From a bacterium (GTDB taxonomy: Bacteria; Patescibacteriota; Minisyncoccia; Phycocordibacterales; UBA12088): 64,000 nt of DNA. The stretch lies in the NCBI GenBank assembly GCA_003252295.1, contig QKEV01000003.1:128701-192700 (forward strand), read 5' to 3'. A program made the position numbers and the translations under genes. Under the pieces are notes generated by a model. It had not been told where the DNA came from, made no database searches, and saw nothing but the letters and a program-made list of their open reading frames with translations. Below, piece after piece: positions 7,095 to 57,095 of this stretch. How positions within the stretch are numbered: the first letter of the stretch is position 1; the number at the start of each line of letters is the position of its first letter.

Positions 7095-7375
7095 AATTAG
7101 CGAATTTCTGCGTTACTTCACTCGTTCAAATACTCACCGTATGTACAATACGGCTCGTATTTTCACTCGCTTGTGCCTTGAACTTCATCTAATTACATAC
7201 ACATTAAACCGCAAGCTATATTTGACGAATTTCTTCGTTGCTACGTTAAAAATATCATTCACCGTATAAAAAATACGACTCACTCTATTTTTAACTAGCA
7301 CCTCGAACTTCATTCAAATCTGTACACCCTACCACAAGGTAGATGTCTTGAACTTCATCTAATTACATATATTTT
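7095..7375 (+). repeat. Conserved intergenic element, copies A and B in tandem. Core is ttcaCCGTAT-N5-6-ATACGGct (or ATACGAct) followed by c(c/t)ttgaacttcatctaattacata.
   Basis: Hairpin cores at 7135-7157 and 7258-7281. The 23-nt motif cttgaacttcatctaattacata repeats at 7175-7198 and 7346-7369. Homologous copies occur at 22010-22232 and 56975-57095. Confidence 0.7.
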
Positions 7376-7480
7376 GAGAATAATGTATGTGTTCAAAAAA
7401 TATACAGATTTCCTGTTGTGCTATTTATTACCATCTTGCATGGTATTATCAGTAGGCGGTACACTAGTGGTACTAGCTAT

Positions 7481-10400
7481 ATGAATAGAAATATAGACGG
7501 ACCACCGTTTAATGGTGATGCAAGGAAAAAAAATGCACTTACTGATGTGCTTCCTAAACAGGGAGTACCTAGTACTGAGGTGCAGGAAAAGTACCTTGTG
7601 GGTGATGAAGCAGTACAGGCAATACAAAACGCCGAAGGATTGCATGGTTTTTCAGCAGATAGGGAAGAGGAACCTGGATCAAGTGTTAATGAGAACGCAG
7701 TAGAAAGTGCGGTAATTACGGTTGATAATCCTGCAGAAAAAAAGGAAAAGAAAGGCGGTTTTCTTGCTTCACTCTTTGGTGAAGAGATTGCTGATGGCGT
7801 TGAAGCGGTTGACCCTGCTCCAAAAGATCATACTTCTGTAGCTCCTGAAACTGTTCAAGATAGTCCAGTAGCAAAGACGGAGGGTGCACAAGAGGTGGTG
7901 CAAGATAGGAGAGGGGTGCAGGAGCAGGAAGGAGTTGGTCTTGAGACACTTCTCAAAAAAAAGGAAACCAACACAGAAGAAAATCAGCGAGAACAGGGTG
8001 ACAGGGTGGAACATGAGGATTCTCAAGAGAAGGTTAGAGAACTATCAAAGGAAGAAATAGAGTACAAAGCGTCACGAAAAGAGTATAAGCGATACAAAAA
8101 AGAGCTCCATAAGGTTCGTGAAAACTTTGAAAAACTTGCAGATGAGTATAAGGAGGAGAGTGAAAAATCAGGTTTCCTTTCTCGTTTTATGGACACTACC
8201 CCTGAGCTTAGAAAGAAAAAAAAGGAAATGGAAGAAGCTCTTGTGGTGTATGACCATTATCTCGAAAAAATACGTAATGAAAGGGAGAGGAGGATACAAG
8301 CTTCTGTTGAGAAGTTTTCAACTATTGCTGGTGCTGAAAAACAAGAAGATGAGGTGCAGTATATAGCACTTCATGAAGCACTCCTTGAAAAGCAAATAGA
8401 TAACGAGGCGGCAATGCTTGAGTCAATTAAGCAGCGGGAAAATAAAGATGGTGAACCAAACTTTTTTGCACTTCGGTGGATGAAGAAAGGTCTTGGTTAC
8501 TACAGTAAGCTTCCAAAAGCGGGACGTATTGCAATTGGTGCAGGTATTGGTGCTGCTGTTGGGTCACTGGCTGCTGTTGGTGCAGGAGCTGCTGCAGGAG
8601 GTGTACTTGCTGCTGGCGTTGCTGGTGGGTTTACGAAAGGTGCAAGAAAGACGGCTGGGGTATTCCTTGCGCCATTAGCAGCACTTGAAACAAAGAAATT
8701 TTTAGATAAGGAGGTTGATGTATATGAAGAGGTTGCAATGACGGAGCAGAAAAATACCTTTAGTGAGAAAAAGCTCAGTGAGAGTAGGCGTGAACGGAAA
8801 AATATTAAGCGTAATGTGCGTTGGGGGAAACGAAGTGCAACGGTTGGTGCAGCAGGTGCAGCCATGATCGTAGGAGGAGGAGGTAGTGCCCTTGCAGAGA
8901 ATGTTGCTGATGGTGTAGTTGATACGATCGGTGACGTACATTTTGGAGGTGTTGCGGAAGCCAATGCTGCAACTGAAGCACCACAACATTCCGCTTTGTA
9001 TAGGGAGGTTGAAGCTTCACGAAAAGCTTTCGAGGAAGGTGGTAATAGTAATCCAGAAATGAGGTCAGCAGTCCAGAACATAATGGGTAAGGCAGAAGCA
9101 GAATATGATGGTACAGCAGAAGTGGCGGTAAATAGTGCTACACCTGAAATAACCGGTACACACGATATGAGTTTTGTTGATACTGAGGAGCAGAGACCTG
9201 AAAGAACGGTACTCACTCGTCCGTCAGGGCAAAAAAGTTTTTTCCAGAACAAATTTGATGAAGCCCAGGAGCGTGTAGCACTTAGGCGTGCAAGTGGAGT
9301 ACCTGCGGGAGAGGTTGCTGGTGAGCAAATGGTAACTGAACAACCGGAGGGTGGTGTTGAGCATGTACCAGCAGCAGAAGTTGCTCCAGAACAGAGTACA
9401 ACAATGGAAGCACTGCAACAGTCCTCAGAAGGAGCTCTTACAGAGCCGGTTACTGAAGGTTGGGATATACAGCGAATACTGCAGCACATGCATGAGCAAA
9501 ATAGTGCCGACATGGAACATGTATCGACAGGAGAGGTGGCAGAAACACCTGCTGAAGCACCGCCTACCGAAGAGCAACCTGAAGTACTCACTGCTGTGGG
9601 TGAGTATGAGACAGGGTCAAGTGTCAACAAGGAACTGCAGGAATTCCTAGGAAAGGATACGTGGGTGCAAGAGCACTATCCAAATATCGATGAGGATATG
9701 CGTGGTAAAATAGCACATCGACTCTACCTTGAGCTTGCAAAAGATCATGAAGCTATGGAGCGTTTCAAGGTGCGTGGCGATGACTGGAACAGTGTGCATG
9801 AGGGAGATCACTATTCCGTTGGTATGAAGCGTGAGCTCGTTGAGAAAGCGATTAAACGTTTTTATCCAGAAGAGGGGACACAAGAGGTTGCATCTACAAT
9901 GGAAAGAAGAAGTGTTGCACAAGAGGCATTAGATGAACTGCGTGCTGAAAAAACTCCTGTTCCGACAGAGGAGAGTGTGCCTGCCGAAGCTGCAGAAGGT
10001 ACTGAGCCAGTACACTTAGCAGCAAGACACAAAGTATTATATGGAGATGCTAAGTATGAACCGCAGCATATTGAGGCAGATGAGCATAAGATACTGCGTA
10101 AACATCCTGCTGAAGTGCAGCAGTCAAATGAACCAACACCGCAAGCAGATAAGGGTGTTTGGACTAATCCTGACGACCATAAGCCGTTTGGCTCTGAGCG
10201 TAAAACCCCTGTTGAGGAACCTGTAAAAGCGTGGAAAAATCCTGATGTAGATAGAGCTGGAACAGCTGTGCCTGAAGAACATTCAGGTGAGTGGAAAAAT
10301 CCTGATCGTGGAGAAGTGTTATCTTCTCAAGCAGAAGCTGATCTAAAGTACGCACAGATGCAGATGGAGAAGCATGAGGTGCCTGACTACCAAGGTTTTA

Positions 10401-11284: not shown

Positions 11285-11294
11285 GAGAAAGACT

Positions 11295-11630
11295 ATGGAT
11301 AATACAAACAGCACACTTTTACAGTACTTTGACCTTGAAGATGGTTCTGATGAGATGCAGGGTGAGTTTCTTGAAGAACTTGCCGAGACACTTTTTGGTT
11401 CAATTGTGCGTAAGGCATGGGTAGAGTTTGATGGTGATAAAAAGGAAACATTTGCAAAACTACTTGAGGAAAGCAGTGATGATCCCGAAAGTGTTGAAAA
11501 GTATACCGCAGTACTCACCTTTCTTGATGAACATATTGTAAACCTCCGTGATTTTATAGAAAAAGAACTCAGAGAGTTGCAGAAATCGTATAAAACAACG
11601 AGGGATGAACTCCAGGATTCACTGGTATAA
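11295..11630 (+). CDS. Small acidic hypothetical protein of about 111 aa.
   Basis: ATG at 11295 is preceded by a purine-rich AGAGAAAGA stretch. The longer listed start at 11232 overlaps the stop of the previous gene. Confidence 0.4.
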   Translation: MDNTNSTLLQYFDLEDGSDEMQGEFLEELAETLFGSIVRKAWVEFDGDKKETFAKLLEESSDDPESVEKYTAVLTFLDEHIVNLRDFIEKELRELQKSYKTTRDELQDSLV

Positions 11631-11635
11631 AAAGT

Positions 11636-13654: not shown

Positions 13655-13679
13655 GGTATATACAGTTTTTACAGCATGC

Positions 13680-15064: not shown

Positions 15065-16192
15065 ATGAAAAAAGTAACAAAAAATGTCTTTTTCGGTGGC
15101 GTGTTTGGAGTAGCACTCCTTGCAGCTGCGGTCGCAAGCTTGAGTGCTTCAAGTGACACGTACATCCCATTTTTGTCTCAGACTGAGACAGGTAAGACAA
15201 CTCCTGCTGAACTAGGGCAGTACCAGCAGCTCGACTGCGCGAGTATTGGGTATGATATTGCTCAGGCACAGCTCGCTCTTTCAAGTGAAACCCTTGCCTC
15301 AACACAGAACATTCAACTCGTGTTTGGAACGGTGAGCGGGAAGGGTGCCTGGGACAAGCTCAAGCGTCGTGAGATCGCTCGAAGTGAGACGGTATCGTAC
15401 TCACCAAGCAGTCTATCGTTTGTCACCTTCTCTTTCCCAACGCCGGTTGATGTAGATAAGCTTTGTCCAAGTAGTGATGGTATGGCGTACATGCGACTCG
15501 AGGGTGTTGAGGACACCGGAGTATTTATCCATGGTAGCTTAGCGGATGCCTACGCTGGACCACTCTACAACTGTGTACTCGATAACGGTATGCCGTGTAC
15601 GGGAACGATAATAGATATGGCATTTGTGTTCTCAACCCTAGCGAACAATGCACCGGTAATAGATGAGGTGCTACCGATTGAAGCAGTAGAAGGAGAGCCG
15701 CTCGCCTTTACTCTTACCGCTACCGACCCTGATGGTGACAGTGTCACCTGGGGTTCCGGTAACCTACCAGAGGGAGCGGAACTCAATGCGGAGACAGGTG
15801 AGTTTTCTTGGACACCGGGAAGTGACCAGGTGAAGGACTACAAGGTTACCTTTGTTGCAACAGATGATGGAGGTCCGGTAGAAGAATCAAGCAGTATTAC
15901 TGTCTTCATTCACGTGGTAGAGGTAGAGACACCGGTAGAGACCAACGAGCTACTTGAGGATACAGTTGTATCACTGGAACTTGATACAAACGTAGAGAAT
16001 TCATACTTAGCAAACATTAAAAATGTTGAGGATTTCATTGAAAAAGAGCAGTACCAAGCCGCGGAAAACCAGCTCAATGCGATCGTAAACAAGCTTGATG
16101 GAGACCTCAAGAAAGAGCTTATTACACAGGATGAGTACGACACAGTGCTCGCAAAAGTGAATGAACTCTTAGCGAAAATCACAGTAGAGTAG
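15065..16192 (+). CDS. Secreted protein with a cadherin-like / putative-Ig (He_PIG / dystroglycan-type) domain and a C-terminal coiled-coil.
   Basis: Signal peptide VFFGGVFGVALLAAAVASLSASS. The block PVIDEVLPIEAVEGEPLAFTLTATDPDGDSVTWGSGNLPEGAELNAETGEFSWTPGSDQVKDYKVTFVATDDGG matches the putative-Ig / cadherin-like pattern. Confidence 0.65.
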   Translation: MKKVTKNVFFGGVFGVALLAAAVASLSASSDTYIPFLSQTETGKTTPAELGQYQQLDCASIGYDIAQAQLALSSETLASTQNIQLVFGTVSGKGAWDKLKRREIARSETVSYSPSSLSFVTFSFPTPVDVDKLCPSSDGMAYMRLEGVEDTGVFIHGSLADAYAGPLYNCVLDNGMPCTGTIIDMAFVFSTLANNAPVIDEVLPIEAVEGEPLAFTLTATDPDGDSVTWGSGNLPEGAELNAETGEFSWTPGSDQVKDYKVTFVATDDGGPVEESSSITVFIHVVEVETPVETNELLEDTVVSLELDTNVENSYLANIKNVEDFIEKEQYQAAENQLNAIVNKLDGDLKKELITQDEYDTVLAKVNELLAKITVE

Positions 16193-16195: not shown

Positions 16196-16243
16196 AGAAC
16201 AAAAAAACCACCGTGCATATTGCACGGTGGTTTTTTTGTTTAT
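16196..16243. terminator. Bidirectional rho-independent terminator.
   Basis: aaaaaaaccaccgtgcatattgcacggtggttttttt is a perfect 11-bp stem (ccaccgtgca / tgcacggtgg) flanked by an A-run and a T-run. Confidence 0.8.
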
Positions 16244-19274: not shown

Positions 19275-20132
19275 ATGTTACAAAGTCTTGCAAAGACCAC
19301 AGCGGTCATTGTGAGCTCCACCGTCTTGGCAACGCTTGCTGTGAACGCTGTTGATATGAACGGCGCATTCTCCCACTCAATGCTTGGAGGACTGCTGTTT
19401 TCTGTTAGTAGTGAAGAAACTGAGACATGTCCTCCAAACATGGTGCTCGTCACACAAGCGCTCGTGCCATTTTGTGTTGATATGTATGAGGTGTCCGCAG
19501 GTGATGCGTGTGTATACGCTGAACCAGCTGATGAAGCAGAAACCATGTTAAATCTCAATGATAGAAAATGCACACCTGTCTCAGAGGTAAACAAAAAACC
19601 ATGGACTAATGTGTCACTCGATCAAGCACAGCAAGCATGTTCACGAGCAGGGAAACGACTTCCAACAGCGAGTGAATGGTACAAGGCAGCAATAGGTACT
19701 CCTGACATGTCCTCTGGTTGGAACGAAGAGCAGTGTAATGTTGCCAATAATCGTGCAGATGGTGCGTCACTAACGGGAGGTGGTATGCGCTGCATTTCTG
19801 ATGCTGGTGCGTACGACATGGTGGGAAACGTCTGGGAGTGGGTAGCTGATACTGTAGATAATGGTGTATGGGATGGGAGAGAGCTACCGATGACAGGTTT
19901 TGTGGCAGGTGTTGATATTGATGGTATACCGTACCTCACAGAACAAACAAAAAATGCAACCTTTAATAATGATAGGTTTTGGATGGATAGTACTATTCAT
20001 GCAGGTGTACTGCGAGGTGGATACTACAACAGTCAGAGTCAATCAGGAGTGTACGCTACCTACATGGCGAGCCCTCCAACATTTAGTGGTGATGCAGTGG
20101 GTTTTAGATGTGTGACAACAGTTCATGAGTAG
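19275..20132 (+). CDS. Secreted FGE-sulfatase (SUMF1 / formylglycine-generating-enzyme) domain protein.
   Basis: Signal peptide. Motifs KRLPTASEWYKAA, MVGNVWEWVAD, LRGGYY and GFRCV match PF03781 hallmarks (RLPTEAEWE, GNVWEW, RGGS., GFRC). Confidence 0.75.
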   Translation: MLQSLAKTTAVIVSSTVLATLAVNAVDMNGAFSHSMLGGLLFSVSSEETETCPPNMVLVTQALVPFCVDMYEVSAGDACVYAEPADEAETMLNLNDRKCTPVSEVNKKPWTNVSLDQAQQACSRAGKRLPTASEWYKAAIGTPDMSSGWNEEQCNVANNRADGASLTGGGMRCISDAGAYDMVGNVWEWVADTVDNGVWDGRELPMTGFVAGVDIDGIPYLTEQTKNATFNNDRFWMDSTIHAGVLRGGYYNSQSQSGVYATYMASPPTFSGDAVGFRCVTTVHE

Positions 20133-21996
20133 TACTATAAATACAAAAATTTGGTGGTGGGGAGGTTGTGTACTATTCATGTTTTTAATGATGTGTGTGC
20201 ATGTGGTGAGCTCACAGTCGACCTCATACTTGACGTACGTGAGCGATCGATTGACGCATAGTGCACCTGCTGCATCAACAAACCATACGATTACCTTTAC
20301 ATTGACACAGGCAGTACCAGCGGGCGGTGCTGTTGAGCTGCTCTTTGATGAAGGTGGAATAACTATCCCGGCAGCACTCGACTACACTGATGTTGATATG
20401 GCATTTGCAGCAGTAGCAGGTGGTCCCTATACGGAACGTCCTCTGTCATGGCTACAGAGCGCTGGAACTGATGATGTGACCGTGACGAGTGGTGCAAATG
20501 GGAGTGTGCGCTTTGACCTTAATACATCGGTAGGTATTGCCGCTGGTAATGAAGTAGTAGTTGAAATAGGTACTAATGCAACCTATGGTGCTCTTGGTGA
20601 TCAGCAAACGACACTGATCAATGCTACCGGTACGTATCCGGTAACCATTTACACATACGATGCTTCGGATATAGAAATAGATTATGGTAGAACAGTTTTT
20701 GTTGTAGTTGAGCCGGTGACGGCTGGTCCAGTGGATACCACAGACACTGACCCACCGATCATTATAAGTTCATGGCCAAGCGGCATTCTGCAAACGGGAA
20801 CAGAGGCAGCTGAGATGTATGTAGAGACAAATGAGTTGGCAACCTGTAAGTACGCAACATCGAGCATGTCGTACTCGCTCATGCCGTATACATTCTGGTC
20901 AACCTCAACATCTGATTATGCACTATGGAACTTTGCACAACTCACCGGACTCACTGATGGTGAGTCGTACATATACTATGTTCGCTGTATTGACTTTCGT
21001 TTGAATGAAATGAACCCGGATTACATTATTGCGTTTGAGGTAGGTATTCCTCCTGGAAGTTCGACAACTACCTCGACTAGTACGAGTGTCGGTACCGGAA
21101 TAGGTGATGTTGCAAGTTCTACCTGTATTGGAGACCAATGTGTTGGAGACGACATTGGTTCCGGTAGTGGTTCAACAGGTACGGGAGACGGTAGTAGTCC
21201 TACAGGAGGTGATAATAGTGGTAGTGGCAACGGAGGAGGTAGTAGTGGTGGTGATTACTTACCACAAGCTGATGTAATGATCGATGGTTGGGCATATCCG
21301 AACTCAACAGTGTATCTTTTGCGTGATGGGGTAGAAGTAGGTACTGAGTCACCAGGAGGTGACGCATACTTTAGTAACCTTACTGAAGGACTTGATCGTG
21401 GTTCGTACTCATTTTCAGTGTATGCCATAGATGCAAAAAATGGACGCAGTGCAACAATCAGTACCACGCTCTGGTTGCAACAAGATACGTACAATGAGAT
21501 CAGTAACGTCATGCTTCCTCCTACGGTGCATGTCGTTGAGAATTCTGTTGCACCAGGTGCACCATTAGAGGTGAGTGGATATACTGCTCCACGAGCAACA
21601 GTGACAACATGGCTCAGGCCAAAACTTGCAGAGGTAACGAGTGCTGATATTGTTGCAACAACAACAGCAACTGCTGCAGGTACCTGGGCGCTCACCATAA
21701 GTACTACAGGACTCTCTCAAGGAACCTATGAACTTATAGCACAAGCAGTAATGCCAGATGGAACAGTAGAGAGTGATAAGAGTTTGCGGAAGACTATCGG
21801 TATTGGGGTAGACGTGGGTGCAGATGGAGATTGTATCAGTATAGGAGACCTCAACTGTGATGGGTATGTGAACCTTGTAGACTTTTCTATCTTGCTCTTC
21901 AATTGGAACACCTCAAGTGCAACAGCAGATATAAATGGTGATGGTTTAGTATCATTGCCTGACTTCTCGATTATGCTCTACAACTGGACGGGCTAA
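20125..21996 (+). CDS. Secreted 623-aa protein with a Gly/Ser-rich linker, an Ig-like domain and a C-terminal type-I dockerin-like module.
   Basis: The C-terminus GDLNCDGYVNLVDFSILLFNWNTSSATADINGDGLVSLPDFSIMLYNWTG carries two Ca-binding F-hand-like segments (D.N.DG.V...D). Start codon overlaps the stop of the FGE-like gene (20125 vs 20132). Confidence 0.8.
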   Translation: MSSTINTKIWWWGGCVLFMFLMMCVHVVSSQSTSYLTYVSDRLTHSAPAASTNHTITFTLTQAVPAGGAVELLFDEGGITIPAALDYTDVDMAFAAVAGGPYTERPLSWLQSAGTDDVTVTSGANGSVRFDLNTSVGIAAGNEVVVEIGTNATYGALGDQQTTLINATGTYPVTIYTYDASDIEIDYGRTVFVVVEPVTAGPVDTTDTDPPIIISSWPSGILQTGTEAAEMYVETNELATCKYATSSMSYSLMPYTFWSTSTSDYALWNFAQLTGLTDGESYIYYVRCIDFRLNEMNPDYIIAFEVGIPPGSSTTTSTSTSVGTGIGDVASSTCIGDQCVGDDIGSGSGSTGTGDGSSPTGGDNSGSGNGGGSSGGDYLPQADVMIDGWAYPNSTVYLLRDGVEVGTESPGGDAYFSNLTEGLDRGSYSFSVYAIDAKNGRSATISTTLWLQQDTYNEISNVMLPPTVHVVENSVAPGAPLEVSGYTAPRATVTTWLRPKLAEVTSADIVATTTATAAGTWALTISTTGLSQGTYELIAQAVMPDGTVESDKSLRKTIGIGVDVGADGDCISIGDLNCDGYVNLVDFSILLFNWNTSSATADINGDGLVSLPDFSIMLYNWTG

Positions 21997-22009
21997 CCAG
22001 AAGCGTATT

Positions 22010-22232
22010 TTTGGCGACCATCTTCAGTATTTTCGTTGTTAGTTTGTTCACCGTATATCGAATACGGCTTACAAACACAACTCCTCAATACTTCGATATT
22101 CATCCAAAATGTACACTTCTGGAAACTTCAATATGTAACTCTTGAATGAATTCCTTGACGCCTTGAACCTTACTCAAGAAATTAATACCTTGCAGTTCAA
22201 GGGTATAGCTCCTTGGTGCCTTGAATTTGCTT
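22010..22232 (+). repeat. Conserved intergenic element, copy C.
   Basis: tttcgttgtt...ttcaCCGTATatcgaATACGGctt at 22047-22070, then ccttgacgccttgaacctta (22153-22172) and ggtgccttgaatttgc. It lies downstream of the dockerin gene. Confidence 0.65.
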
Positions 22233-22988: not shown

Positions 22989-24473
22989 ATGCTTTGCTCA
23001 TCGCGAAAACATATGAGCAAGGGTGTAAGTATACAACGTAACACAAGGCATCTTGGGAAACTACTCAGTTTGCTTTTTGTGTTTTTACTTGTTTTGGTCT
23101 TGCCGCGACCTTCATACGCGGCGAGCTATGCGTTTTCTCCTGCAACAGGTTCCTATGAGGTGGGTAAGAGTTTTACTGTAAAGGTGATGGTGAATGCTGG
23201 TGGAGACGCAGTGAACACAGGTGATGCTACCATTACATATGATTCGAACTTACTCACCGCTGTGTCTGCTGCAAAAGAATCAGCGTTCAATCTTTGGGTT
23301 ACTGAACCGACCATAAAAGCTGGTACGATAACATTTGCAGGAGGAGGCACCACTGCTATTTCTGGAACAAAAGCAATTGTCACGATCACCTTCAAAGCAA
23401 AGGCTGAGGGTACGGCGACGGTAGCCTTTTCAAAGGCAACACTCTTAGCTGGAGCAGGACAGAATGTTCTTAGTGGTTCTGATGGAGCAACGTTTACTAT
23501 TACACCTGCAGCTGCTACACCGGAACCTACTGCAGATCCGGAGGAGGAGAATCGAAACACAAAGATACCACCACCTGATGCACCTGTTATAAAGAGTACA
23601 ACACATCCTGAGAGTGAAGAGTGGTACGCTGCGTCTGATGCTGCGTTTAACTGGGATATACCGTATGGTGTAACTGCCATGCGTCTTTCCTTTGATCAAG
23701 ATGAGAAGGGTGCTCCTACTGAACAGCACAAGCCACCGATAGGTGAGTGGAAGACGAGTGGTGTAACTGATGGTGTTTGGTATCTCCATGCTGATTTTGA
23801 AAATCGTGGTGGCTGGGGAAGTTCTACTTCCTTTGCGATACATGTGGATACAACACCTCCTGAGGAGTTTAGTGTTTCTGCTGCTGGTGGAGATCTTACA
23901 GCAGAATTGCGTTTTGAAGCAGTAGATGCACTCTCTGGTATTTCATATTATGAGGTGTCTATTGATGATGGTAGTCCACGAGACGTACAGCCAACAGAGC
24001 TTACAGATGGCTATCGACTCACCAATCTTGATCCGGGTGAGCATACGATAGCAGTGACAGCATTTGATATGGCAGGGAATGAACGTTCAGCAGGTGGATC
24101 GGTTGAGGTGACAGGCACAAAACAGGTTGAGGAGGAGGTCTCTGAACCAATAGGATTTGACGCTATCTACTGGGTATCACTCTTGTTCATGGCAGCACTT
24201 GCAGTGGTAATAACCATGCTCATCAAGGAACGTCGCAAGTTTGTTGAAGAAAAAGATCATATTAAACGTGAGACCATGGAGGTAGGTGACCGACTCATAA
24301 ACATTTTTGGTGTACTTCGTGATGAGATTGAGGAAAAGGTGATAGAACTTTCTCATAAGCCAAATATGACCGACAATGAACGTAATATACTCGAGGGCTT
24401 GAAAGATGCACTCGATATTTCAGAAGAGCTTATCGATAAGGAGATCGAGGATGTTAGGAAGCTCCTCAAGTAG
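22989..24473 (+). CDS. Membrane-anchored cohesin-like scaffold protein: signal peptide, cohesin-like domain, Ig/FN3-like domain, TM helix, cytoplasmic coiled-coil tail.
   Basis: SYAFSPATGSYEVGKSFTVKVMVNAGGDAVNTGDATITYDSNLLTAV...GTITFAGGG...IVTITFKAKAEGTATVAF...ATFTI has a cohesin-like beta-sandwich pattern. TM helix IYWVSLLFMAALAVVITMLI. Paralogous to the ORF at 58948 (GEHTIAVTAFDMAGNERS vs GEHVLTVTAFDNAGNSTS). Its ATG directly abuts the Hsp20 stop. Confidence 0.65.
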   Translation: MLCSSRKHMSKGVSIQRNTRHLGKLLSLLFVFLLVLVLPRPSYAASYAFSPATGSYEVGKSFTVKVMVNAGGDAVNTGDATITYDSNLLTAVSAAKESAFNLWVTEPTIKAGTITFAGGGTTAISGTKAIVTITFKAKAEGTATVAFSKATLLAGAGQNVLSGSDGATFTITPAAATPEPTADPEEENRNTKIPPPDAPVIKSTTHPESEEWYAASDAAFNWDIPYGVTAMRLSFDQDEKGAPTEQHKPPIGEWKTSGVTDGVWYLHADFENRGGWGSSTSFAIHVDTTPPEEFSVSAAGGDLTAELRFEAVDALSGISYYEVSIDDGSPRDVQPTELTDGYRLTNLDPGEHTIAVTAFDMAGNERSAGGSVEVTGTKQVEEEVSEPIGFDAIYWVSLLFMAALAVVITMLIKERRKFVEEKDHIKRETMEVGDRLINIFGVLRDEIEEKVIELSHKPNMTDNERNILEGLKDALDISEELIDKEIEDVRKLLK

Positions 24474-24482: not shown

Positions 24483-24535
24483 ATAAATATATAATTAGGT
24501 ATATAACTAATTATATACCTAATTATATACCTACT
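24483..24535. repeat. AT-rich palindromic element (aggtatata ... tatatacct repeats).
   Basis: taggtatataactaattatatacctaattatatacct contains inverted and direct repeats. It lies immediately 3' of the 22989 gene and 5' of the giant gene. Confidence 0.5.
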
Positions 24536-24874: not shown

Positions 24875-24904
24875 GTGCGTGCACAGGGGTTGTTCGGTGT
24901 AGAA

Positions 24905-27900
24905 ATGTTGAAACGTTTTTCATTTATTTATCGAAACAAGATACCACTCATAGTGGCAACACTCGTTGTGTTCATAGCAACACTCGTTGTATTTGCAGTG
25001 GAAGAGGAGAAAACGATCCATGTTTTTCCAACTGCAGTGAAGAGTGAGAACTGGATGAAAGAGAATAACGCACTTGAGCAGAGTCTTGGTGATCAAGCGG
25101 TACTTGAAGACTTTGATAGAGATAATTCTGCCTTTGTAATCTTTATAGAACATGAAAAACCTGATGAGGTTAAAGAGGAGGTATCAGAGGAAGAGGGTGG
25201 CACTGAGGGTGTCACACCTAATGATGCAGCAGAGGAGACAGAACAAGATGGGGTAACTGAAGAGGTGAATAATGAAGCAGGTGAGAGTACTCCTGCTGAG
25301 GAAGTGATAGAGGAAGAAGAAGTAGAAGAGCAGGAAACAATAGAAGAAGAGGAATCAACTATTGCGCCGATGGAAGATCTCACTATGCATGAGTATCTTT
25401 TTGATCTTGGAAGAGGTTTTGTTGGAAAACAAGCACATGCACAGGAGGTGGTTGAAGATACAGAAGAAGTAGAACAGGTTCCTGAGGAGGTTGAGGAACC
25501 ACAGATGAACAGTGAAGAGGAGGCAGTTGTAGCAGAACCTGTTACAGAAGAAATTGTTGAGGAAGTGTCGGAAGTTGAAGATATACAAACAGACGAGACG
25601 TCTTCAGGTGTGGAAGAGACGGTATCTGAGCCAGAGGAAGGTATTGCTGATGAGATAATGGATGAAGAAGTGGTAGAGGATGATACTGAAAATTCTGACC
25701 AGGTGGAAGAAGTACAGGAAGAGCAAGAGATTAAGGATGTGGTGAGTGATGAAGAGGTGATAACCGATACTTCCGTTGAGGAGGGTGTAGATGAGGATGT
25801 CCGTGTATGTAAGGTGCTCGGTACAGAATGCTACACACTTGAGTTTGATGGCTTCGATATCGGCAGTGTGCTTTCAGAGGAAACGGTAACAGGGTACACC
25901 TTGAATGCATCACTCGCAGCGCACTCTGATATAGATAGGTTTACGGATGATAAGGTACTCGTTCGTTACTTCTACAAGGGTAAGTGGCACCTTGCTGGTG
26001 AGATTGCCATTCGAGATACCATTTCAAACTTTGAGAATGGTGGTCATTTCCGTTTTGCTCTGCCTGATCTTTCAGGATGGGATGCGCTCCATACCTTTAA
26101 AGTTGAATTTGAGTTTGTTCGTCAGAGTGATGTGCGAACTGATTTCTATCTCGACAGTGTTTGGGTGGAAACAACATACCGGACTGATGGAAACGAAGGT
26201 CCTGTGTTTCCTGACAATGTACTTGAAGAACTCGAACACCTCGAGCAGGCACGTCGAGGTGATTTGTTGCGGGTAGATGATGACACGGTCATTACACTTC
26301 CATACGCAACTACCGATGGTGATGATCTGGTCATTCGTTCAAGTGAGGTAGCACTCGAGAGTCCTGGTACTGGTGAGATGTACTTTTCGGTGACCAATAT
26401 TGGAGATTCCAAGAAAGACTTCTCACTTTCGTTTTACATGCCGGATGAAGAGAGTGAACCACAGATGCTGCGGCAGTGGATGTACAACATTCCAGAAGAG
26501 GAAGAGGTGATTGAGTATGGCAGTCTTGCTCAGTACTGTGAGGGGACGTGGGTGCCGGATGAAGATGAGCCAGAGCGCTACTTGTGTGCTGAAACCGGAG
26601 TTGATCTCTACTGTAGCGAGCTCAACAGTGATATGACGAACTGTATTGAGAACAATGTTGAAGTTGGGCGTCATACAGAAACAGCTTACCGTGAGGGTTG
26701 GCATGAGTACCTGCTTGATCAAGAAGTGAAGGAGTCATCTAATGAAGAGGAAGTTGGAGAAAATGGAGAAACTGCTACTGATGCTATGTCTGCACAGGTA
26801 GCAGCAACAGAAGATGAGAAAGAAAAAGAGAGTTTCATTGACCGAGTCCGACGTTGGTTTAGTTTTACCAAACAGCCGGAACGTGATGCTGCTGTTACCT
26901 ACACTTCAAAAAATACTTTTACCGTTGCTCCTGACCAAACACTCTTCTTCTCGTCTCGTATTGAGTACCCGCAGATATCTGAGGGTGGTTTTGCGGTAGT
27001 TGCTACAGCTCGTAACGAGGCACCAGCACTTGATATTTCTTGGAAGAGTGATTGGCGTTACCGACTACCTGTTGAGTTTGATAGGGACATGGTCGGAGAT
27101 CGTCTCGATCTAAAACTCACTGTTGATGATGTACCACACATGTTTTCACATGTGGGTGATTGGTCGCAACTCTTCATACGTGAAGCTGATTCACATAGTG
27201 CAGAGTGGCTTCCGTTCACCCATACGGTGGTGAGTGACAGTAGGGTAGAGCTTTCAGTCGATCTGAGCACACTCTCTTCTGGTGCGCATGAACTTGAGGT
27301 CTACTATGGTGATGATGAAGTAATGAAAGAAGAGCGTAAGTTGCGAGGCAGTAAGCTGTTTATTAATCCTGAAGCACTATCTCTTGGTAGAGATGCTGAA
27401 GGTGCAGCAGATGATCTTACTGAACTCGGTTACAGAGTTGGTACGGTACAAGAGGTGGTGCTTGATGATGAGCCAAACCATCGGGTCCTTGTTGGGGAGG
27501 AGGAAGATGGCAGTTTCCCAGAAGATGGAAAACTTGTCTTTGCGTACCGTTCAAACAGAGCTGAGTCAAGGGAAGGAGTGTTTGCCGATGTTCCTGACAC
27601 GAATGATTTCAGTATTGCGCGCGCAACCCTTATTCATGCAGGTAAGGGTGAGGTACCTGATACAAGTGTGATCAAAACGGTTGGCAATGAGTGGGTGCTC
27701 AACACAGGCATGAGCAAGCGCACCTTTACCCCAGGAAAGTATATTCTTGAGGTTGAGGTGGTTGAGGGAGATACACGATATGTTGATACACAGGAGTTCT
27801 ACTGGGGTGTACTCACCTGGAACACAACAAAGAGTGTCTATGAAGTAGGTGAGACCGCTACCATGCACATGGGAGTTCTTGCTGACAGTGGTAGTACTGT

Positions 27901-30900
27901 TTGCGATGCAACGCTTGAACTCACACTCCGTACCCCAAGTGGTGAGGAGGTAACGGTACCTGTGTCAGCAAGTGGTGTGTGTGTTGGTAACACTGTTGTT
28001 GGTGTACCGGACTACAGTGCTGCGTACACACTCGGAGAGGTGGGGACCTACGATGTACTCCTCAAGTCCATTGGCAAGGATGGCACGGTACTTCATCAAA
28101 TAGAGGATAGTATCGTCGTCGAAACAAATACACCGTATATTATTGAGCGAACAGGACCAACGAGAATCTATCCAGTTGCTGATTACATAATGATGCTTGC
28201 GGTTACCACAGATAACACGTACGTGGGAACTGTACGTGAGGTAGTGCCGGCGTCATTTAGGGTGTACGACTACGGAGATGCTCGTATCTACACTGAAGGA
28301 AATGAGACATTCATTGAGTGGGATGTGGCACTCATTGGCGGCGAACGTGCTGAACTTTCATACAGCTTCGATGCACCCGATATAAGTCCGTACGTGTACC
28401 GACTTGGTCCTGCAACACTTGGAGATGTATTTACTGAACTGCGGGAGTGGCAGATAGCTTCAGATGCCACAGGAAACATGCTCATCCTCTGGGATGATGG
28501 TGCTACGGTGCCTACCGGTTGGACCTGTGTATCGTGTACCTCTGGAGATCCGTTCTATCAGCGGTTTATCATGGGAAGCTCCACGTACAACACCACGGGT
28601 GGTGCGACGACGCATAATCATTCAGCAACAGGAAGTGTCTATACTAGTGGTGCCGGAGCGACAGAGAGTCTTGGTAGTGGTGTCATTGAGGTGGTTGGTC
28701 ACACACATACCTACACGCCAACTATTTCTTCAGAGAACAACTTGCCGTTGTATCGTCAGCTTCGCGTGCTCGAGTACAACTCTGCCGGTGAACCTACAGA
28801 GCTACCGGCAGGTGCAATAGTGTACTTTGATGCCACAGTGCCGAGTGGTTGGACTCAGTACGCAGCTCAGGATGGGTACTACGTGTACGGTGAAAATACG
28901 CCGGGAACGACAGGTGGGTCAAATACTCATAGTCACACCATTTCAGGTTCAACAGATACTTCAGTTGGAGACTCGGTGGGAAGCCGAGGAGGTGGCACAC
29001 AAGCTTCTGCTGCAACAGATGCACATACGCATACGGTTTCTGGTGGTACACTCACAGATTCAAATGAACCACCGTACGTTGAGATGATTCTTGGTAAACT
29101 TGATGCAACAACAACACTGCCAAATGGCATGATAGGTATGTGGACTGATGAAGTGCCGACTGGTTGGTTAACCATTTCGAGCTCAACGGAGACGCTCGAG
29201 AACAAGTTTATAAAACCTGCTGCAACATACGGTAGTGAGGGAGGATCAGCAGCACATGCTCACAGCGATGTTACAGGACTCACCTCAAGTTTGGTAGGTG
29301 GTGCAGCGAGTAGAGCTGGTAGCTCTGGAGTAGAACCACATACGCACACTGTTGATGTGACGAGCTTCTCAACGGAATCGAGTCTGCCTCCGTACGCTAC
29401 TGCTATATTTGGAAAACGTTTCTCCGATGACCCTATTTACACGCAGAACTACTACCGCTTCTACGTGAATGAAGACGCAGAACCACCAACAGATCCATGG
29501 CCAGCAGGAGTGACTGATCTTGCTGAGAATGCTCGTATCACGACGAGCGACTACACGAGTAAGGGTGATGTGGTACGTATGCGCATGTCGGTCAGTGTCA
29601 CCAATGCAACCTCAACCGCAGATACTGATGCCTTCAAGTTGCAGTATGCAGCCGGGTCAACCTGTAGTGACTCAGGACTCGTTTGGTACGATGTTGCACC
29701 AATAGGTTCAACGACGGCACCATGGCGAGGCTACGACAATAGCTCGCTCACCGATGGTACTGAGGTGAGTTCCACAACACTTTCCGTTTCAGATGTGTTT
29801 GAAACATACGAAGAGGAGAATCCTTCAGCGAGCACCACCAACGACATTGAGATAGACCAAGAAGGTGAGTGGGACTGGGTGGTGCAGCACAACAATGCAA
29901 GTGCGGGAACCGACTACTGTTTCAGGATGGTGCAGAGTGATGGAAGGGTGTTCTCTGGGTACAACAACTATCCGCAACTCATCACCGATGAGGCGCCGGT
30001 CGCTGCGACACTCCTTACGCCGTTTGATAATGAGAAAGCTTCAAGTACAGCACCAGTCTTCACCTTTTACACCACTGATCCTGAGGGAGATGCTATCCAC
30101 TACCAGATACAAGTAGATGACGATTATCTCTTTGGAAGTCCTGTAATAGATGCAAATTCAATAACTTCGACGAGTGATTTTGGAAACGTGGATACACCTG
30201 CAGATAAGGCACCGTTCAACTCGGGAGACACTATGAAGTACGATGGGGCTTCAGGTCTTTCCAACAATACGACGTACTGGTGGCGTGTTCGAGGTCGTGA
30301 TACAGAGGGTTCTGACCAATGGGGTGATTGGTCCGACGCAAGGAGCTTCACCACTGATACGTCGGTCACTATTTCTACTTGGTTCCAGACAACTGATGAA
30401 CAATTTGATACTGATACACTCACTGGTACAGAAAGTTCCGGTGGTTCTGATCAGGTAGTGCTTACTACGGGAAGTACAACAGGTTCGGTTGTTTCAACAG
30501 CTATTGATTTTGATTGGGGCACTGATGGAAACGCATGGGGATACCTCTACTTCACCGATACTGAGATATCGAGTGATTTGAAGTACAGTATTGAGTACTA
30601 TGATACCGATAGTGAAGAGTGGGGCTTGATACCTGATACAGATCTTTCTGGCAACTCTACTGGATTTGATACCTCACCAGTCACACTTCTTTCTCTAGAT
30701 ACATCTACCTATAACCAGATTCGCTTGGTTGCTGATCTTACCAATAGTGGTGCAAGTCCAATTCTCCATGACTGGACGGTGGAGTGGGGAACGAGGGTGC
30801 AGCAGCCGACACTTATGAAATTGTTTGATAATGAGAAGACGGGAACAACAACACCATCATTTGAGTTTACTACGACTGATCCACAAGATGATGATCTGGT

Positions 30901-51309: not shown

Positions 51310-51315
51310 TGAACC

Positions 51316-52521: not shown

Positions 52522-52548
52522 GGAACTGTGTAATTTTCCACAATTTTT

Positions 52549-52600: not shown

Positions 52601-52611
52601 AAAGGTTTTGC

Positions 52612-54492: not shown

Positions 54493-54522
54493 TACTAGGA
54501 CATATTACATAGAACTAATTTT

Positions 54523-54549
54523 AAAAGGGCACGTATGTGCTCTTTTTTG
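54523..54549 (+). terminator. Rho-independent terminator.
   Basis: aaaagggcacgtatgtgctctttttt: a 7-bp stem with one G-U pair and a T6 run, 30 nt after the stop. Confidence 0.55.
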
Positions 54550-54693
54550 CTATGGTTTAACATCTAAAACTGTGGCGTAGTCATGGCTACCCACAACTTG
54601 TACCCAAAAGCAAGTATCATGTTTTCTTATTTATAGCTACAATAGATATACATCGGGACTTGTCCCGATTGTGGTTAATCACATAAATTTTGC

Positions 54694-55779: not shown

Positions 55780-55785
55780 CAAGGT

Positions 55786-56973
55786 ATGATTTCCTCAGTG
55801 CTCAGTGTAAGGTGTAAGGCACAACTACTTATTGTACTTGGAACTGTTCTTACAGGAATTGTATTTGCTCTGTCTACTCAAAGTGCGTATGCACAGTACA
55901 CTGCTACAACAACAGTATCATTAACGGTTTGTGGAGATGCTATTGTTGCACCTGGTGAGTTTTGTGATGATGGAATAAATACTGGTGCTTACGGTGACTC
56001 TATTGCTGGAAGGGTTTGCGATCCAATCTGTAGTGCGTGGGGACCGTACTGTGGTGATGGCGTAATACAAGCTTTTTACGGAGAGGAATGTGATGATGGT
56101 AATAACACCTCTGGCGATATTTGTAGTGCAACGTGTCAAAATGAGACCGATCCAGTTACTGAAGGTGGAGGTGGTAGCGGTGGTCCAGGTGGAGGTGGTG
56201 GAGAGAGTAGTGGTGGAAGTGGTATAAAAGGTGCAAGTAAAGACGGTGAGATTGATTATGAAGGTGACACGAATGTAAACATAAACGGAAGAGCATGTCC
56301 TGGTTCAACTATAACCGTGCTTCGTGATGGTGAGGTTGATCGAGTGGTGGAAGCAGATTCTTCTTCAGAGTTTAGTTTTACGCTCACTGATCAAACCCCA
56401 GGCATCACCACATTAGGTTTTTGGGTACTTGATAATGATGGAAGACGTTCAGTAACATACTCTGCAACATTTCAAATAATTGAAAATGCTGTAACGACAC
56501 TTTCTGGTGTACTCATTCCACCTACCATTGCAGTAGTACCTGAGCAAGTACCATACGGTGAGGCAGTTACCTTTGAAGGATGTGCGCTTCCTGCAACACA
56601 GATTCAGGCATACATTGATAGCAATGAGACACCAGATGAAACGTTGGTTGCAAATAATGGTGACTGGGCAATCGTGCATGACACAACAGAACTTAGTAAT
56701 GAATCGTTCCATACAGTGAAGGCGAACTACATAGATCCGACAAACATTGAACTCAAGAGCGGATATAGTTTGATTACTAGTTTTTATGTAGGGAACAGAG
56801 ACGTAAACACAAATATGACTGCAGACCTCAACTTTGATGGGTTTGTAAATTTGACAGATTTTTCCATCCTTCTCTTTAACTGGGGCATGACAGGAGGGAT
56901 AGCGGACATAGATCAAAATGGCAGTGTAGCGTTGTCGGACTTCTCCATCATGCTTTTTTACTGGACTGGGTAA
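55786..56973 (+). CDS. Secreted protein with a Myxococcus-type Cys-rich repeat region, an Ig-like domain and a C-terminal type-I dockerin-like module.
   Basis: CGDAIVAPGEFCDDGINTG...CGDGVIQAFYGEECDDGNNTSGDICSATC fits the C..CGDG....E.CDDGN repeat. The Ig-like block is shared with the ORF at 20125. C-terminus ADLNFDGFVNLTDFSILLFNWGMTGGIADIDQNGSVALSDFSIMLFYWTG. Confidence 0.8.
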   Translation: MISSVLSVRCKAQLLIVLGTVLTGIVFALSTQSAYAQYTATTTVSLTVCGDAIVAPGEFCDDGINTGAYGDSIAGRVCDPICSAWGPYCGDGVIQAFYGEECDDGNNTSGDICSATCQNETDPVTEGGGGSGGPGGGGGESSGGSGIKGASKDGEIDYEGDTNVNINGRACPGSTITVLRDGEVDRVVEADSSSEFSFTLTDQTPGITTLGFWVLDNDGRRSVTYSATFQIIENAVTTLSGVLIPPTIAVVPEQVPYGEAVTFEGCALPATQIQAYIDSNETPDETLVANNGDWAIVHDTTELSNESFHTVKANYIDPTNIELKSGYSLITSFYVGNRDVNTNMTADLNFDGFVNLTDFSILLFNWGMTGGIADIDQNGSVALSDFSIMLFYWTG

Positions 56974-56974
56974 A

Positions 56975-57095
56975 TATCGCCAGTTTTGGATAATTTCGTT
57001 GTTATCTGTGTCGATAACTTTTTCACCGTATACTTATACGGCTCAAAAGTGTATCTCCTTGACGCCTAGAACTTATCTCAAAACTGGCGATATTT
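56975..57095 (+). repeat. Conserved intergenic element, copy D, bounded by a perfect 17-bp inverted repeat.
   Basis: aaatatcgccagttttg (56975-56991) pairs with caaaactggcgatattt (57079-57095). Inside are gttatctgtgtcgataac and ttcaCCGTATacttATACGGctc (57022-57044), then ctccttgacgcctagaactta. Confidence 0.7.

What the first reader, a model, noticed from the sequence alone, without database searches (positions are those of the whole stretch)
7095..57095. Recurrent structured intergenic element downstream of big surface-protein genes (4 copies at 3 loci)
Copies at 7095-7205, 7228-7375, 22010-22232 and 56975-57095 share, in order: tttcgttg(t/c)t; then a hairpin ttcaCCGTAT-N5-6-ATACGGct; then c(c/t)ttgac/ccttgaac boxes. 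Copy D is additionally bracketed by a perfect 17-bp inverted repeat (aaatatcgccagttttg / caaaactggcgatattt). Each copy sits immediately 3' of a large secreted-protein gene (ORF1, dockerin 20125, dockerin 55786) and 5' of an unrelated gene (the charged protein, Hsp20, pepE-like). It could be a family of factor-independent terminators or attenuators, a small structured RNA, or a miniature inverted-repeat element that has seeded these loci.
Basis: seen in the sequence. Interest (0 to 1): 0.6.

Follow-up and report, generated by a model that had tools for sequence, protein, structure and literature searches.

The report
Fold-back mobile repeat at gene ends
The four repeats are real copies of an apparently undescribed 120-128-base hairpin-shaped repeat element, common in the tiny-celled Patescibacteria (CPR), that sits exactly at the ends of genes of all kinds and behaves like a small mobile element, not a terminator.

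Summary
Copies A (7082-7207), C (21997-22122) and D (56971-57096) are each exactly 126 nt. Each folds into one long rod hairpin. B (7208-7332) is a decayed copy that abuts A, and 3'-half fragments follow B and C.

A covariance model confirmed about 200 copies, mostly in Patescibacteria and a few in other phyla. The rod is supported by heavy covariation: 87% of cells paired against 55% in shuffles, and 38 of 39 pairs have double changes.

The element starts at the stop codon of a co-oriented upstream gene of any kind, including tuf, rplB, secY, ssb and a tRNA. The link to surface-protein genes is coincidental. It is not an intrinsic terminator.

One metagenome holds about 17 near-identical copies at different loci, with 17-nt terminal inverted repeats and 2-bp duplications. 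That shows real transposition. An in-frame copy inside the Saccharibacteria IleRS gene is about 10-fold more conserved than its flanking codons.

In 188 of 188 distinct copies the strand antisense to the gene folds better. No antisense promoter is found, and this asymmetry remains unexplained. No Rfam family matches, and no paper in the searched library prints the conserved blocks.

Best reading: a fold-back, MITE-like element recognised by its structure.

The parts
7082..7207 (+). Copy A. Intact 126-nt fold-back element with a perfect 19-bp outer stem (7082-7100 / 7189-7207) and an apical hairpin at 7137-7153. It starts 1 nt after the ORF1 stop codon (7079-7081). It is listed on the strand co-oriented with the gene; the - strand folds better.
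   Evidence: MFE -37.4, z -7.6; I4; 123.7 bits; 113.4 bits; sense -36.7 against antisense -48.5 kcal/mol
7208..7332 (+). Copy B. Decayed copy abutting A with no spacer. Its outer stem is reduced to about 6 bp and its apical hairpin is CCGTAT/ATACGA (7262-7278).
   Evidence: z -3.9; 108.6 bits; 94.1 bits
7347..7369 (+). A 23-nt fragment identical to the 3' end of copy A (7177-7199, cttgaacttcatctaattacata). It is a remnant of a further copy.
   Evidence: Read directly
21997..22122 (+). Copy C. Intact 126-nt element with an imperfect 18-bp outer stem (CCAGAAGcGTAtTTTTGG / CCAAAAtgTACaCTTCTGG) and an apical hairpin at 22051-22067. It starts directly after the stop codon of the dockerin gene (20125-21996).
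   Evidence: MFE -40.7, z -7.4; 120.1 bits; 95.6 bits
22128..22231 (+). Degenerate partial copies carrying 3'-half boxes: tccttgacgccttgaacctta at about 22150-22172, and ctccttggtgccttgaatttg at about 22209-22231.
   Evidence: 22128-22193, 19 bits, E 0.03
56971..57096 (+). Copy D. Intact 126-nt element with a perfect 18-bp outer stem (56971-56988 / 57079-57096) and an apical hairpin at 57026-57041. Its first 3 nt are the TAA stop codon of ORF 55786-56973.
   Evidence: MFE -47.1, z -8.3; I9; 118.2 bits; 110.1 bits

Best explanation
These are copies of a family of non-autonomous fold-back (fully palindromic) mobile repeat elements of 120-128 nt. The family is abundant in Patescibacteria (CPR) and occurs sporadically in other bacteria.

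Each copy is one long imperfect hairpin with these parts:
- an 18-19-bp outer stem whose sequence is free but whose pairing is kept;
- a conserved helix, GAAnTTC paired with GAAnTTC, flanked by conserved loop blocks (GGCGAATTTCTTCGTTG and CGCCTCGAACTTCATCC on the gene-sense strand);
- two variable inner stems;
- an apex of the form TC(A/G)-NNNTAY-loop-RTANNN-CTC.

Inferred mechanism: an enzyme encoded elsewhere recognises the folded single strand through the conserved core and apex. It acts at the base of the stem at a fixed distance. This would explain why length and pairing are conserved while the end sequences are not. The strand that is recognised is the one complementary to the neighbouring gene's mRNA, most likely as single-stranded DNA.

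New copies land at or in the stop codon of a gene, in the gene's orientation. There the element is carried along in the 3' UTR, upstream of the real terminator.

Shown: family membership, structure, covariation, position, orientation, turnover, recent transposition in one lineage, and strand asymmetry. Inferred: the enzyme, the single-stranded DNA intermediate, and whether the stop-codon position comes from targeting or from selection in very compact genomes.
For: Family and structure:
- The covariance models give about 100 full-length hits in each set, at 33-118 bits. Chance pattern hits score 21 bits or less.
- Covariation: 87.4% of cells paired against 55.5% in shuffles and 34-43% when partners are slid; 38 of 39 pairs have double changes; score 0.70 against 0.17.

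Mobility:
- About 17 near-identical 124-nt copies in Ga0247727 contigs have unrelated flanks, a 17-nt terminal inverted repeat (AGGGAACCTCTAAAAAC) and identical 2-nt flanks in 13 of 17.
- Tandem abutting copies occur in the window (A|B) and in L077 (7295-7420 | 7421-7548). The window also holds partial copies.
- Presence is patchy after orthologous genes. For example, tuf has it in Campbellbacteria but not in Lloydbacteria, and rpsJ shows the reverse.
- A copy lies in a genuine Syntrophomonadaceae contig but is absent from relatives whose PorB is 89-90% identical.
- Two inverted copies flank a tRNA-Gly exactly.

Position:
- The upstream gene is co-oriented in 81 of about 95 copies, and the 5' end lies mostly -12 to +3 nt from the stop codon.
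- This is replicated in the independent set: 42 of 100 copies against 11 of 100 for the other end.

Not a terminator.

Strand:
- The antisense strand is more stable in 98 of 98 and in 90 of 90 distinct copies.
- Isolated outer-stem mismatches number 34 of the A.C type against 5 of the G.T type on the sense strand.
- Alifold gives -32.4 kcal/mol for the antisense strand against -22.1 for the sense strand.
- Antisense promoter-like sites are not enriched: 4 of 95, against 16 of 95 sense promoters for the next gene and 5-6 of 95 in controls.
Against: - No transposase, recombinase or reverse transcriptase recurs near the copies, and no long autonomous version was found.
- Apart from the one young family, no target-site duplication is detectable.
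- Copies within a CPR genome are only about 54% identical to each other, against 46% between genomes. Most copies are therefore old, yet they keep pairing through compensatory change. That fits a selected cis function as well as it fits selection for mobility.
- The in-frame IleRS copy has 3 of 120 variable columns against 159 of 680 in the flanking codons. This indicates purifying selection on a fixed copy, which a purely selfish element does not predict.
- In the window the gene-sense strand is the leading strand (GC3 skew +0.10, AT3 skew -0.18). The better-folding strand is therefore the leading-strand template, which is not the strand used by known single-strand DNA transposons of the IS200/IS605 type (from established knowledge).
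Confidence: 0.5

Rival explanations
1. A host cis-acting 3'-UTR RNA module. The hairpin is transcribed with the upstream gene and bound by a conserved protein or cut by RNase III. It would stabilise or process the mRNA 3' end, punctuate operons, or load Rho through its C-rich, G-poor loops.
For: - It lies between the stop codon and a canonical terminator, co-oriented with the gene.
- It follows many highly expressed genes and sits between tRNAs.
- Old copies keep their structure through compensatory change.
- Nucleotide-level conservation is strong in the IleRS copy.
- The sense-strand loops are 66% pyrimidine with C/G of 2.3.
Against: - The transcribed strand is the worse-folding one in 188 of 188 copies. 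It tolerates A.C but not G.U, which is the opposite of what selection on that RNA hairpin predicts.
- Presence is patchy at orthologous genes.
- Recent dispersed amplification with 2-bp duplications occurred in one lineage.
- The family holds an in-frame coding copy.
Confidence: 0.2
2. A host DNA-level site used as a folded bottom-strand hairpin, in the manner of an integron attC site or a REP sequence. A conserved recombinase, nuclease or replication protein would act on it, and it would mark gene ends.
For: - The antisense strand is the well-formed hairpin, with G.T and purine-purine mismatches.
- No antisense promoter is found.
- It sits directly after ORFs in their orientation, and its length is fixed.
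- The copy inside a translated region is conserved, where an RNA structure would be melted by ribosomes.
Against: - No associated integrase or HUH gene is present.
- The upstream genes are core housekeeping genes, not cassettes.
- No R-box-like terminal consensus is present.
- No known process exposes the leading-strand template as a single strand (inference).
Confidence: 0.17
3. An independent small antisense RNA gene of about 125 nt, convergent with the upstream gene, with many paralogues per genome.
For: - The antisense strand has the hallmarks of a structured RNA. G.U exceeds A.C by 192 to 19 inside helices. Its loops are purine-rich. Next to the apex lies a tandem G.A/A.G plus G.U motif.
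- Tight packing against the 3' end of a convergent gene is expected in compact genomes.
Against: - There is no promoter-like signal at a fixed or enriched position.
- In several loci a bidirectional terminator lies directly upstream of it on that strand, leaving no room for a promoter.
- Copies lie inside an essential ORF and between tRNAs.
Confidence: 0.08
4. A family of intrinsic (factor-independent) terminators or attenuators.
For: - They lie downstream of stop codons and form stable hairpins.
- In AT-rich genomes the outer 3' arm is U-rich.
- In copy A the apical hairpin happens to be followed by CTCGTATTTT.
Against: - Copies A, C and D have no U-tract after the stem.
- Canonical terminators follow the element in at least 14 loci.
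- Copies occur inside operons (after rplB and rpsJ), inside IleRS, and between tRNAs.
Confidence: 0.05

Closest known systems
MITEs and other small palindromic mobile repeats of bacteria (ERIC/IRU of enterobacteria, about 127 bp; Correia elements of Neisseria; Rickettsia palindromic elements, RPE)
   Same: - About 125 bp long and palindromic over the whole length.
- Dispersed in many copies, mostly in transcribed intergenic DNA at gene ends.
- No coding capacity.
- Partial and tandem copies occur.
- One lineage has terminal inverted repeats and a short (2-bp) duplication.
- Like the RPEs, it can sit in-frame inside an essential protein gene.
   Different: - The end sequences are not conserved between copies of one genome, while the centre is.
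- The family spans a whole superphylum plus other phyla, with the same core.
- The stems evolve by compensatory change.
- There is a universal strand asymmetry of folding.
- The 5' end sits on the stop codon.
- No partner insertion sequence is known.
- No sequence similarity was found to plasmid or phage records. Similarity to ERIC, Correia or RPE consensus sequences was not tested directly.
Integron attC sites
   Same: - An imperfect palindrome of 57-141 nt directly after an ORF and co-oriented with it, often overlapping the stop codon.
- Structure is conserved rather than sequence.
- The bottom strand (antisense to the ORF) is the functional folded form (established knowledge). Here too the antisense strand folds better.
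   Different: - No RYYYAAC / GTTRRRY boxes lie at the ends.
- The conserved part is the middle, not the ends.
- The upstream genes are core genes, not cassette arrays.
- No integrase lies nearby.
REP / REPIN sequences with RAYT transposases, and IS200/IS605 single-strand transposition
   Same: - Hairpins are recognised as single-stranded DNA on one strand only.
- The ends need not be conserved, because cleavage is set by structure and distance (established knowledge).
- They are extragenic and lie at gene ends.
   Different: - REPs are 20-40 nt with a GTAG or CGTC head, and no such head is present here.
- No Y1/HUH gene was found.
- The IS200/IS605 family makes no duplication, whereas the young family here has 2 bp.
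- The folded strand here is on the leading-strand template.
Phage T7-type RNase III processing hairpins / 3'-UTR stabiliser hairpins
   Same: They are long hairpins with conserved internal loops, placed just after stop codons within polycistronic transcripts.
   Different: The sense RNA is the poorer hairpin. No processing data exist. The copies are mobile and patchy.

Membership tests
Intrinsic (Rho-independent) terminator | A short GC-rich hairpin immediately followed by a 7-9-nt U-tract | tested here: not met
   No T-run follows the stems of A, C or D. The element is a 126-nt rod with internal loops. Only A's apical hairpin matches a loose pattern by accident.
Intrinsic (Rho-independent) terminator | It is the last element of the transcription unit | tested here: not met
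   Canonical terminators lie 12-65 nt further downstream in at least 14 loci. Copies also lie within operons, inside IleRS and between tRNAs.
MITE (non-autonomous DNA transposon) | Terminal inverted repeats | tested here: met
   Outer stems are 18-19 bp in A and D. A 17-nt terminal repeat is shared by about 17 copies of the Ga0247727 family. End sequences differ between lineages.
MITE (non-autonomous DNA transposon) | Target-site duplication | tested here: inconclusive
   Identical 2-nt flanks occur in 13 of 17 copies of the young family. There is no enrichment in the broad sets: 2 of 40 and 5 of 40, against controls of 5 and 4. The window copies are compatible with a duplication (A TA, C AA, D TA), but this is not significant.
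MITE (non-autonomous DNA transposon) | Many similar copies at unrelated loci within a genome | tested here: inconclusive
   This is met in the Ga0247727 contigs. In CPR genomes the copies are only about 54% identical.
MITE (non-autonomous DNA transposon) | A related autonomous element encoding the transposase | tested here: not met
   No recurrent transposase lies in 78 element-bearing loci. No split or long version was found. Whole genomes could not be searched.
Integron attC | R''/R' core sites RYYYAAC ... GTTRRRY at the two ends | tested here: not met
   The ends are hypervariable. The nearest motifs (TCGAAC, CGTTG) are internal and do not fit the consensus.
Integron attC | It follows promoterless cassette ORFs in an array next to intI | tested here: not met
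   The upstream genes are tuf, rplB, secY, ssb, rpoD and similar. No integrase is found in the window or the loci.
Integron attC | The bottom strand is the folded, active strand | tested here: inconclusive
   The antisense strand folds better in 188 of 188 copies. Activity is not testable with these tools.
REP/REPIN-RAYT | 20-40-nt palindromes with a GTAG/CGTC head, and a RAYT gene flanked by REPs | tested here: not met
   The unit is a single hairpin of about 126 nt with no conserved head tetranucleotide. No Y1 transposase was seen.
Any described RNA family (Rfam 15) | Reaches a family's gathering score | tested here: not met
   There are 0 hits at gathering thresholds over the whole window. 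With permissive thresholds the best hit is a microRNA-precursor model at 21 bits against a gathering score of 119.
Rickettsia palindromic elements (as a kind) | A palindromic repeat able to reside in-frame within protein-coding genes | tested here: met
   It lies in-frame between the catalytic and anticodon-binding domains of IleRS in 9 Saccharibacteria loci. Sequence relatedness to the RPEs was not tested.

The most novel reading that the evidence does not exclude
The element is the substrate of an undescribed structure-guided DNA transaction. An enzyme conserved across Patescibacteria would recognise a bottom-strand DNA hairpin through its core and apex and cut at the base of a sequence-free stem. 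It would insert copies at stop codons in the gene's orientation. This would be a new class of hairpin-defined mobile element, functionally parallel to attC/IntI or REP/RAYT. Some copies, such as the one in IleRS, may have been domesticated for a cis function.
Probability: 0.2. Interest if true: 0.85.

Novelty: new variant of a known kind. Interest (0 to 1): 0.62.

Why it matters
Patescibacteria have some of the smallest and most streamlined bacterial genomes. Even so, this 126-nt repeat occurs four times in this 64-kb window and three times in 16 kb of a Campbellbacteria genome. It has no Rfam family, and no paper in the searched library prints its conserved blocks.

If it is mobile, it is a cross-phylum selfish element that survives in streamlined genomes by sitting exactly on stop codons. 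It would then also be a marker for horizontal transfer, for example into Syntrophomonas.

If it is functional, it is a superphylum-wide signal at gene ends. Its combination of features does not fit any known class: strand asymmetry, conserved length, sequence-free but always-paired ends, and strong conservation inside an essential gene. Cultured Saccharibacteria make the question directly testable.

In practical terms, gene callers extend ORFs into the element. Short tails such as ...PKIG are read from it. Terminator predictors will also misread it.

Tried and rejected
- Rfam, at gathering and at permissive thresholds: nothing.
- tRNA or tmRNA in the window: none.
- Diversity-generating retroelement idea, prompted by the FGE-sulfatase gene at 19275-20132: no reverse transcriptase and no template/variable repeat pair in the window.
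- Viral contigs: 24 pattern hits, all chance, at 21 bits or less.
- Plasmid and phage BLAST: no match.
- Gene-cassette or attC reading: rejected because the upstream genes are housekeeping genes and no end boxes exist.
- Upstream proteins as one family: 47 of 65 are singletons in an all-against-all BLAST.
- A recurrent neighbouring mobile-element gene: none.
- An ORF inserted at the apex (autonomous form): none.
- A dedicated antisense promoter: not enriched.
- Orientation tied to local majority gene direction rather than to the adjacent gene: the two could not be separated.
- Empty-site comparison for the window: impossible, because the nearest PepE homologue is only 65% identical and the source contig could not be fetched.
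- Empty-site comparison for the Syntrophomonas copy: the relatives differ downstream of porB.
- Small peptide on the antisense strand: the AUG is not conserved (read).
- T-loop or kink-turn reading of the conserved blocks: inconsistent with the covarying helix.
- Literature: no description was found by topic or by sequence string.

Full report
**1. The observation**

The hairpin core CACCGTAT-N(4-5)-ATACG occurs four times in the window, always on the + strand, at 7135, 7260, 22049 and 57024. None is expected by chance.

Reading the flanks shows what the unit is. Copies A (7082-7207), C (21997-22122) and D (56971-57096) are each exactly 126 nt. Each folds into a single rod-like hairpin:
- A: MFE -37.4 kcal/mol, z -7.6
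- C: MFE -40.7 kcal/mol, z -7.4
- D: MFE -47.1 kcal/mol, z -8.3

The outer stem is a perfect 19-bp inverted repeat in A and a perfect 18-bp one in D. In C it is an 18-bp stem with small defects. The three outer stems have unrelated sequences.

B (7208-7332) abuts A with no spacer and is decayed (z -3.9). A 23-nt stretch identical to the 3' end of A follows B at 7347-7369. 3'-half fragments follow C at 22128-22231.

A covariance model built from the four copies finds only these four in the window at more than 100 bits. A second, broader model agrees.

**2. The family**

Most records are Patescibacteria: Saccharibacteria, Kaiser-, Campbell-, Lloyd-, Kerfeld-, Zambryski- and Uhrbacteria, Peri-/Peregrinibacteria and Paceibacterota. 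The covariance model confirmed about 100 full-length copies of 120-129 nt at 33-99 bits. Chance pattern hits in viral contigs and in non-CPR genomes match only the short hairpin, at 21 bits or less.

A second, independent metagenome scan used only the two arm blocks and left the apex free.

On the first alignment, 87.4% of pair cells are standard pairs. The figure is 55.5% in shuffles and 34-43% when partners are slid. 38 of 39 pairs show double (compensatory) changes, and the covariation score is 0.70 against 0.17.

In the apex-unbiased set the apex consensus is TC(A/G)-NNNTAY-loop-RTANNN-CTC. The stem covaries, for example CCGTAT/ATACGG, CAATAT/ATATTG and CCTTAC/GTAAGG. The exact apex sequence of the window copies is therefore only one variant: 2 of 102 distinct copies carry it.

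Rfam has no matching family. No paper in the library prints the conserved blocks. Topic searches found no description.

**3. Context**

In the genome set the upstream ORF is co-oriented in 81 of about 95 copies. The element's 5' end lies mostly -12 to +3 nt from that ORF's stop codon, and many copies begin with the stop codon itself. The distance to the next gene varies from 1 to about 1000 nt.

The independent set replicates this. In 42 of 100 copies a co-oriented stop codon lies within -35 to +20 nt of the 5' end, with a sharp peak at -6 to +2. Only 11 of 100 have a convergent stop codon near the other end.

Where ORFs overlap the element by 20-26 nt, the extra residues are read from the element itself, for example ...KTSKIG and ...NNPKIGA.

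The upstream genes are unrelated to one another. 47 of 65 are singletons. The rest include EF-Tu, L2, S10, SecY, SSB, sigma-70, GreA, NusG, L7/L12, ATP synthase beta and GyrA. The association with surface-protein genes seen in this window is therefore coincidental.

In L087, two inverted copies flank a tRNA-Gly to within 0-2 nt.

**4. Not a terminator**

The window copies have no T-run after the stem. In at least 14 related loci a canonical GC hairpin plus T-tract follows 12-65 nt downstream. This also shows that the element lies inside the upstream gene's transcript. The window has ordinary terminators elsewhere, at 16198-16240 and 24488-24529.

**5. Evidence for mobility**

- Tandem abutting copies occur, as do partial copies.
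- Presence is patchy after orthologous genes. After tuf the element is present in Campbellbacteria and absent in Lloydbacteria; after rpsJ the reverse holds. After rplB it is present in three lineages and absent in a Kaiserbacterium. It is also patchy after greA, nusG and gyrA.
- One copy lies downstream of porB in a genuine Syntrophomonadaceae contig. It is absent from four relatives and is flanked by a duplicated 29-nt terminator hairpin.
- Most directly, contigs of one metagenome (Ga0247727) carry about 17 near-identical 124-nt copies with unrelated flanks. They share a 17-nt terminal inverted repeat, AGGGAACCTCTAAAAAC. Their 2-nt flanks are identical in 13 of 17, with varied dinucleotides. 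Those contigs, and a second multi-copy group (JMSU01/MDTG01), have gene content unlike CPR: an IS66 transposase, AraC regulators and UvrA paralogues.
- The window copies are compatible with a 2-bp duplication at or in the stop codon (A TA, C AA, D TA), but this is not statistically meaningful.

**6. Evidence that does not fit a simple selfish MITE**

- In CPR genomes, copies are only about 54% identical within a genome, against 46% between genomes.
- No duplication is detectable in the broad sets.
- The end sequences are the least conserved part.
- No transposase recurs nearby, and no autonomous form was found.
- In nine Saccharibacteria loci the element lies in-frame inside isoleucyl-tRNA synthetase, between the catalytic and anticodon-binding domains. 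Among six close genomes only 3 of 120 element columns vary, against 128 of 560 and 31 of 120 in the flanking codons. This means nucleotide-level constraint on a fixed copy, or recent homogenisation.

**7. The strand paradox**

The reverse complement of the gene-sense strand is predicted to be more stable in every distinct copy:
- genome set: 98 of 98, mean -51.4 against -39.0 kcal/mol
- metagenome set: 90 of 90, mean -52.3 against -41.5 kcal/mol

Alifold gives -32.4 against -22.1 kcal/mol.

In the sequence-free outer stem, isolated mismatches flanked by Watson-Crick pairs number 34 of the A.C type and 5 of the G.T type on the sense strand. On the antisense strand this corresponds to 34 wobbles against 5 A.C mismatches. 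Inside helices, G.U against A.C is 192:19 on the antisense strand and 67:86 on the sense strand.

The sense-strand loops are 66% pyrimidine. The element's GC skew is -0.2, opposite to the surrounding + strand (+0.12; GC3 +0.10, AT3 -0.18). On the antisense strand the three-by-three loop next to the apex becomes U-A, G.A, A.G, G.U. That is a continuous helix containing a tandem G.A motif (read).

Known mutation biases on the leading or coding strand would favour the opposite pattern (inference from established knowledge). The asymmetry therefore looks selected.

Yet a dedicated antisense transcript is unlikely. Promoter-like sites upstream on that strand number 4 of 95, equal to controls, while sense promoters for the next gene number 16 of 95 in the same segments. 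Terminators often sit directly next to the element. Copies also lie inside an essential ORF.

The simplest reconciliation is that the relevant folded molecule is single-stranded DNA of the bottom strand. I could not test this. In the window that strand is the leading-strand template, which known single-strand transposons do not use.

**8. Conclusion**

The finding is real. It is one locus-level view of a large, apparently undescribed family of fold-back repeat elements.

I rate 'structure-recognised, MITE-like mobile element carried in 3' UTRs' as most likely (about 0.5). The rivals are:
- a selected 3'-UTR RNA module (about 0.2)
- a host DNA-level hairpin site (about 0.17)
- an antisense sRNA (about 0.08)
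- a terminator (about 0.05)

The kind is known: small palindromic mobile repeats such as ERIC, Correia, RPE and REPIN. The variant is unusual in five respects:
- a conserved centre with free but always-paired ends;
- constant length;
- placement on the stop codon;
- complete strand asymmetry;
- spread across a superphylum, with strong constraint on a copy inside IleRS.

Noticed in passing
L098:2597-7684 (- strand), and the same gene in L059, L067, L109, L051, L104 and L081: The Saccharibacteria isoleucyl-tRNA synthetase ORF is 1695 aa in L098. Besides the in-frame repeat element, its catalytic domain is interrupted by about 900 aa. That insert carries low-molecular-weight phosphatase, NUDIX, serine-hydrolase and periplasmic-binding-like domains.
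   Followed up: partly
L042:5620-5830: In a genuine Syntrophomonadaceae contig, the element plus a 29-nt extra hairpin is bracketed by two identical copies of a 29-nt terminator-like hairpin (AGGGGGACGTTTTGTTTAAACGTCCCCCT). This may be a long duplication made on insertion next to the porB terminator.
   Followed up: partly
L087:1570-1980: A tRNA-Gly(CCC) gene (1693-1766) is flanked by two inverted copies of the element (1570-1694 on the - strand, 1768-1889 on the + strand), abutting to within 0-2 nt. A tRNA-Thr follows 15 nt later. The record is labelled Gammaproteobacteria, and its true origin was not checked.
   Followed up: partly
L151, L155, L167, L169, L178, L181, L194, L224 and others (JMSU01 / MDTG01 contigs): This is a second multi-copy lineage. 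The 127-nt element is always followed by a further conserved hairpin of about 37 nt (GGCTGAACTTATAAGAT...TTTATGAGACAGCCCC), which makes a composite repeat of about 165 nt. The host has AraC regulators and UvrA paralogues, so it is not CPR-like.
   Followed up: no
window 16198-16240 and 24488-24529: At 16198-16240 there is a perfect 20-bp bidirectional terminator (AACAAAAAAACCACCGTGCA / TGCACGGTGGTTTTTTTGTT) after ORF 15065-16192. At 24488-24529 there is a perfect 19-bp, almost pure A+T palindrome after the cohesin gene 22989-24473.
   Followed up: no
window 19275-20132: An FGE-sulfatase-domain protein (285 aa) is encoded here. This is the fold typical of the variable proteins of diversity-generating retroelements. 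It overlaps the start of the dockerin gene by 8 nt. No reverse transcriptase or template repeat was seen in the window.
   Followed up: partly
window 24875-42526 and 65-7081: A 5883-aa ORF has internal repeats spaced about 2.3-2.4 kb apart (34919, 37304, 39599). The 2338-aa ORF1 has 1050-nt internal repeats. Neither has a Pfam match over most of its length (ORF1). The window is rich in cohesin and dockerin pairs.
   Followed up: no
window 57188-57796: The PepE-like protein is recorded as present (100% identity) on a 203,076-bp contig in the protein collection, but the contig look-up twice reported no record. The next homologue is only 65% identical, so the source genome has no close sequenced relative.
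   Followed up: yes
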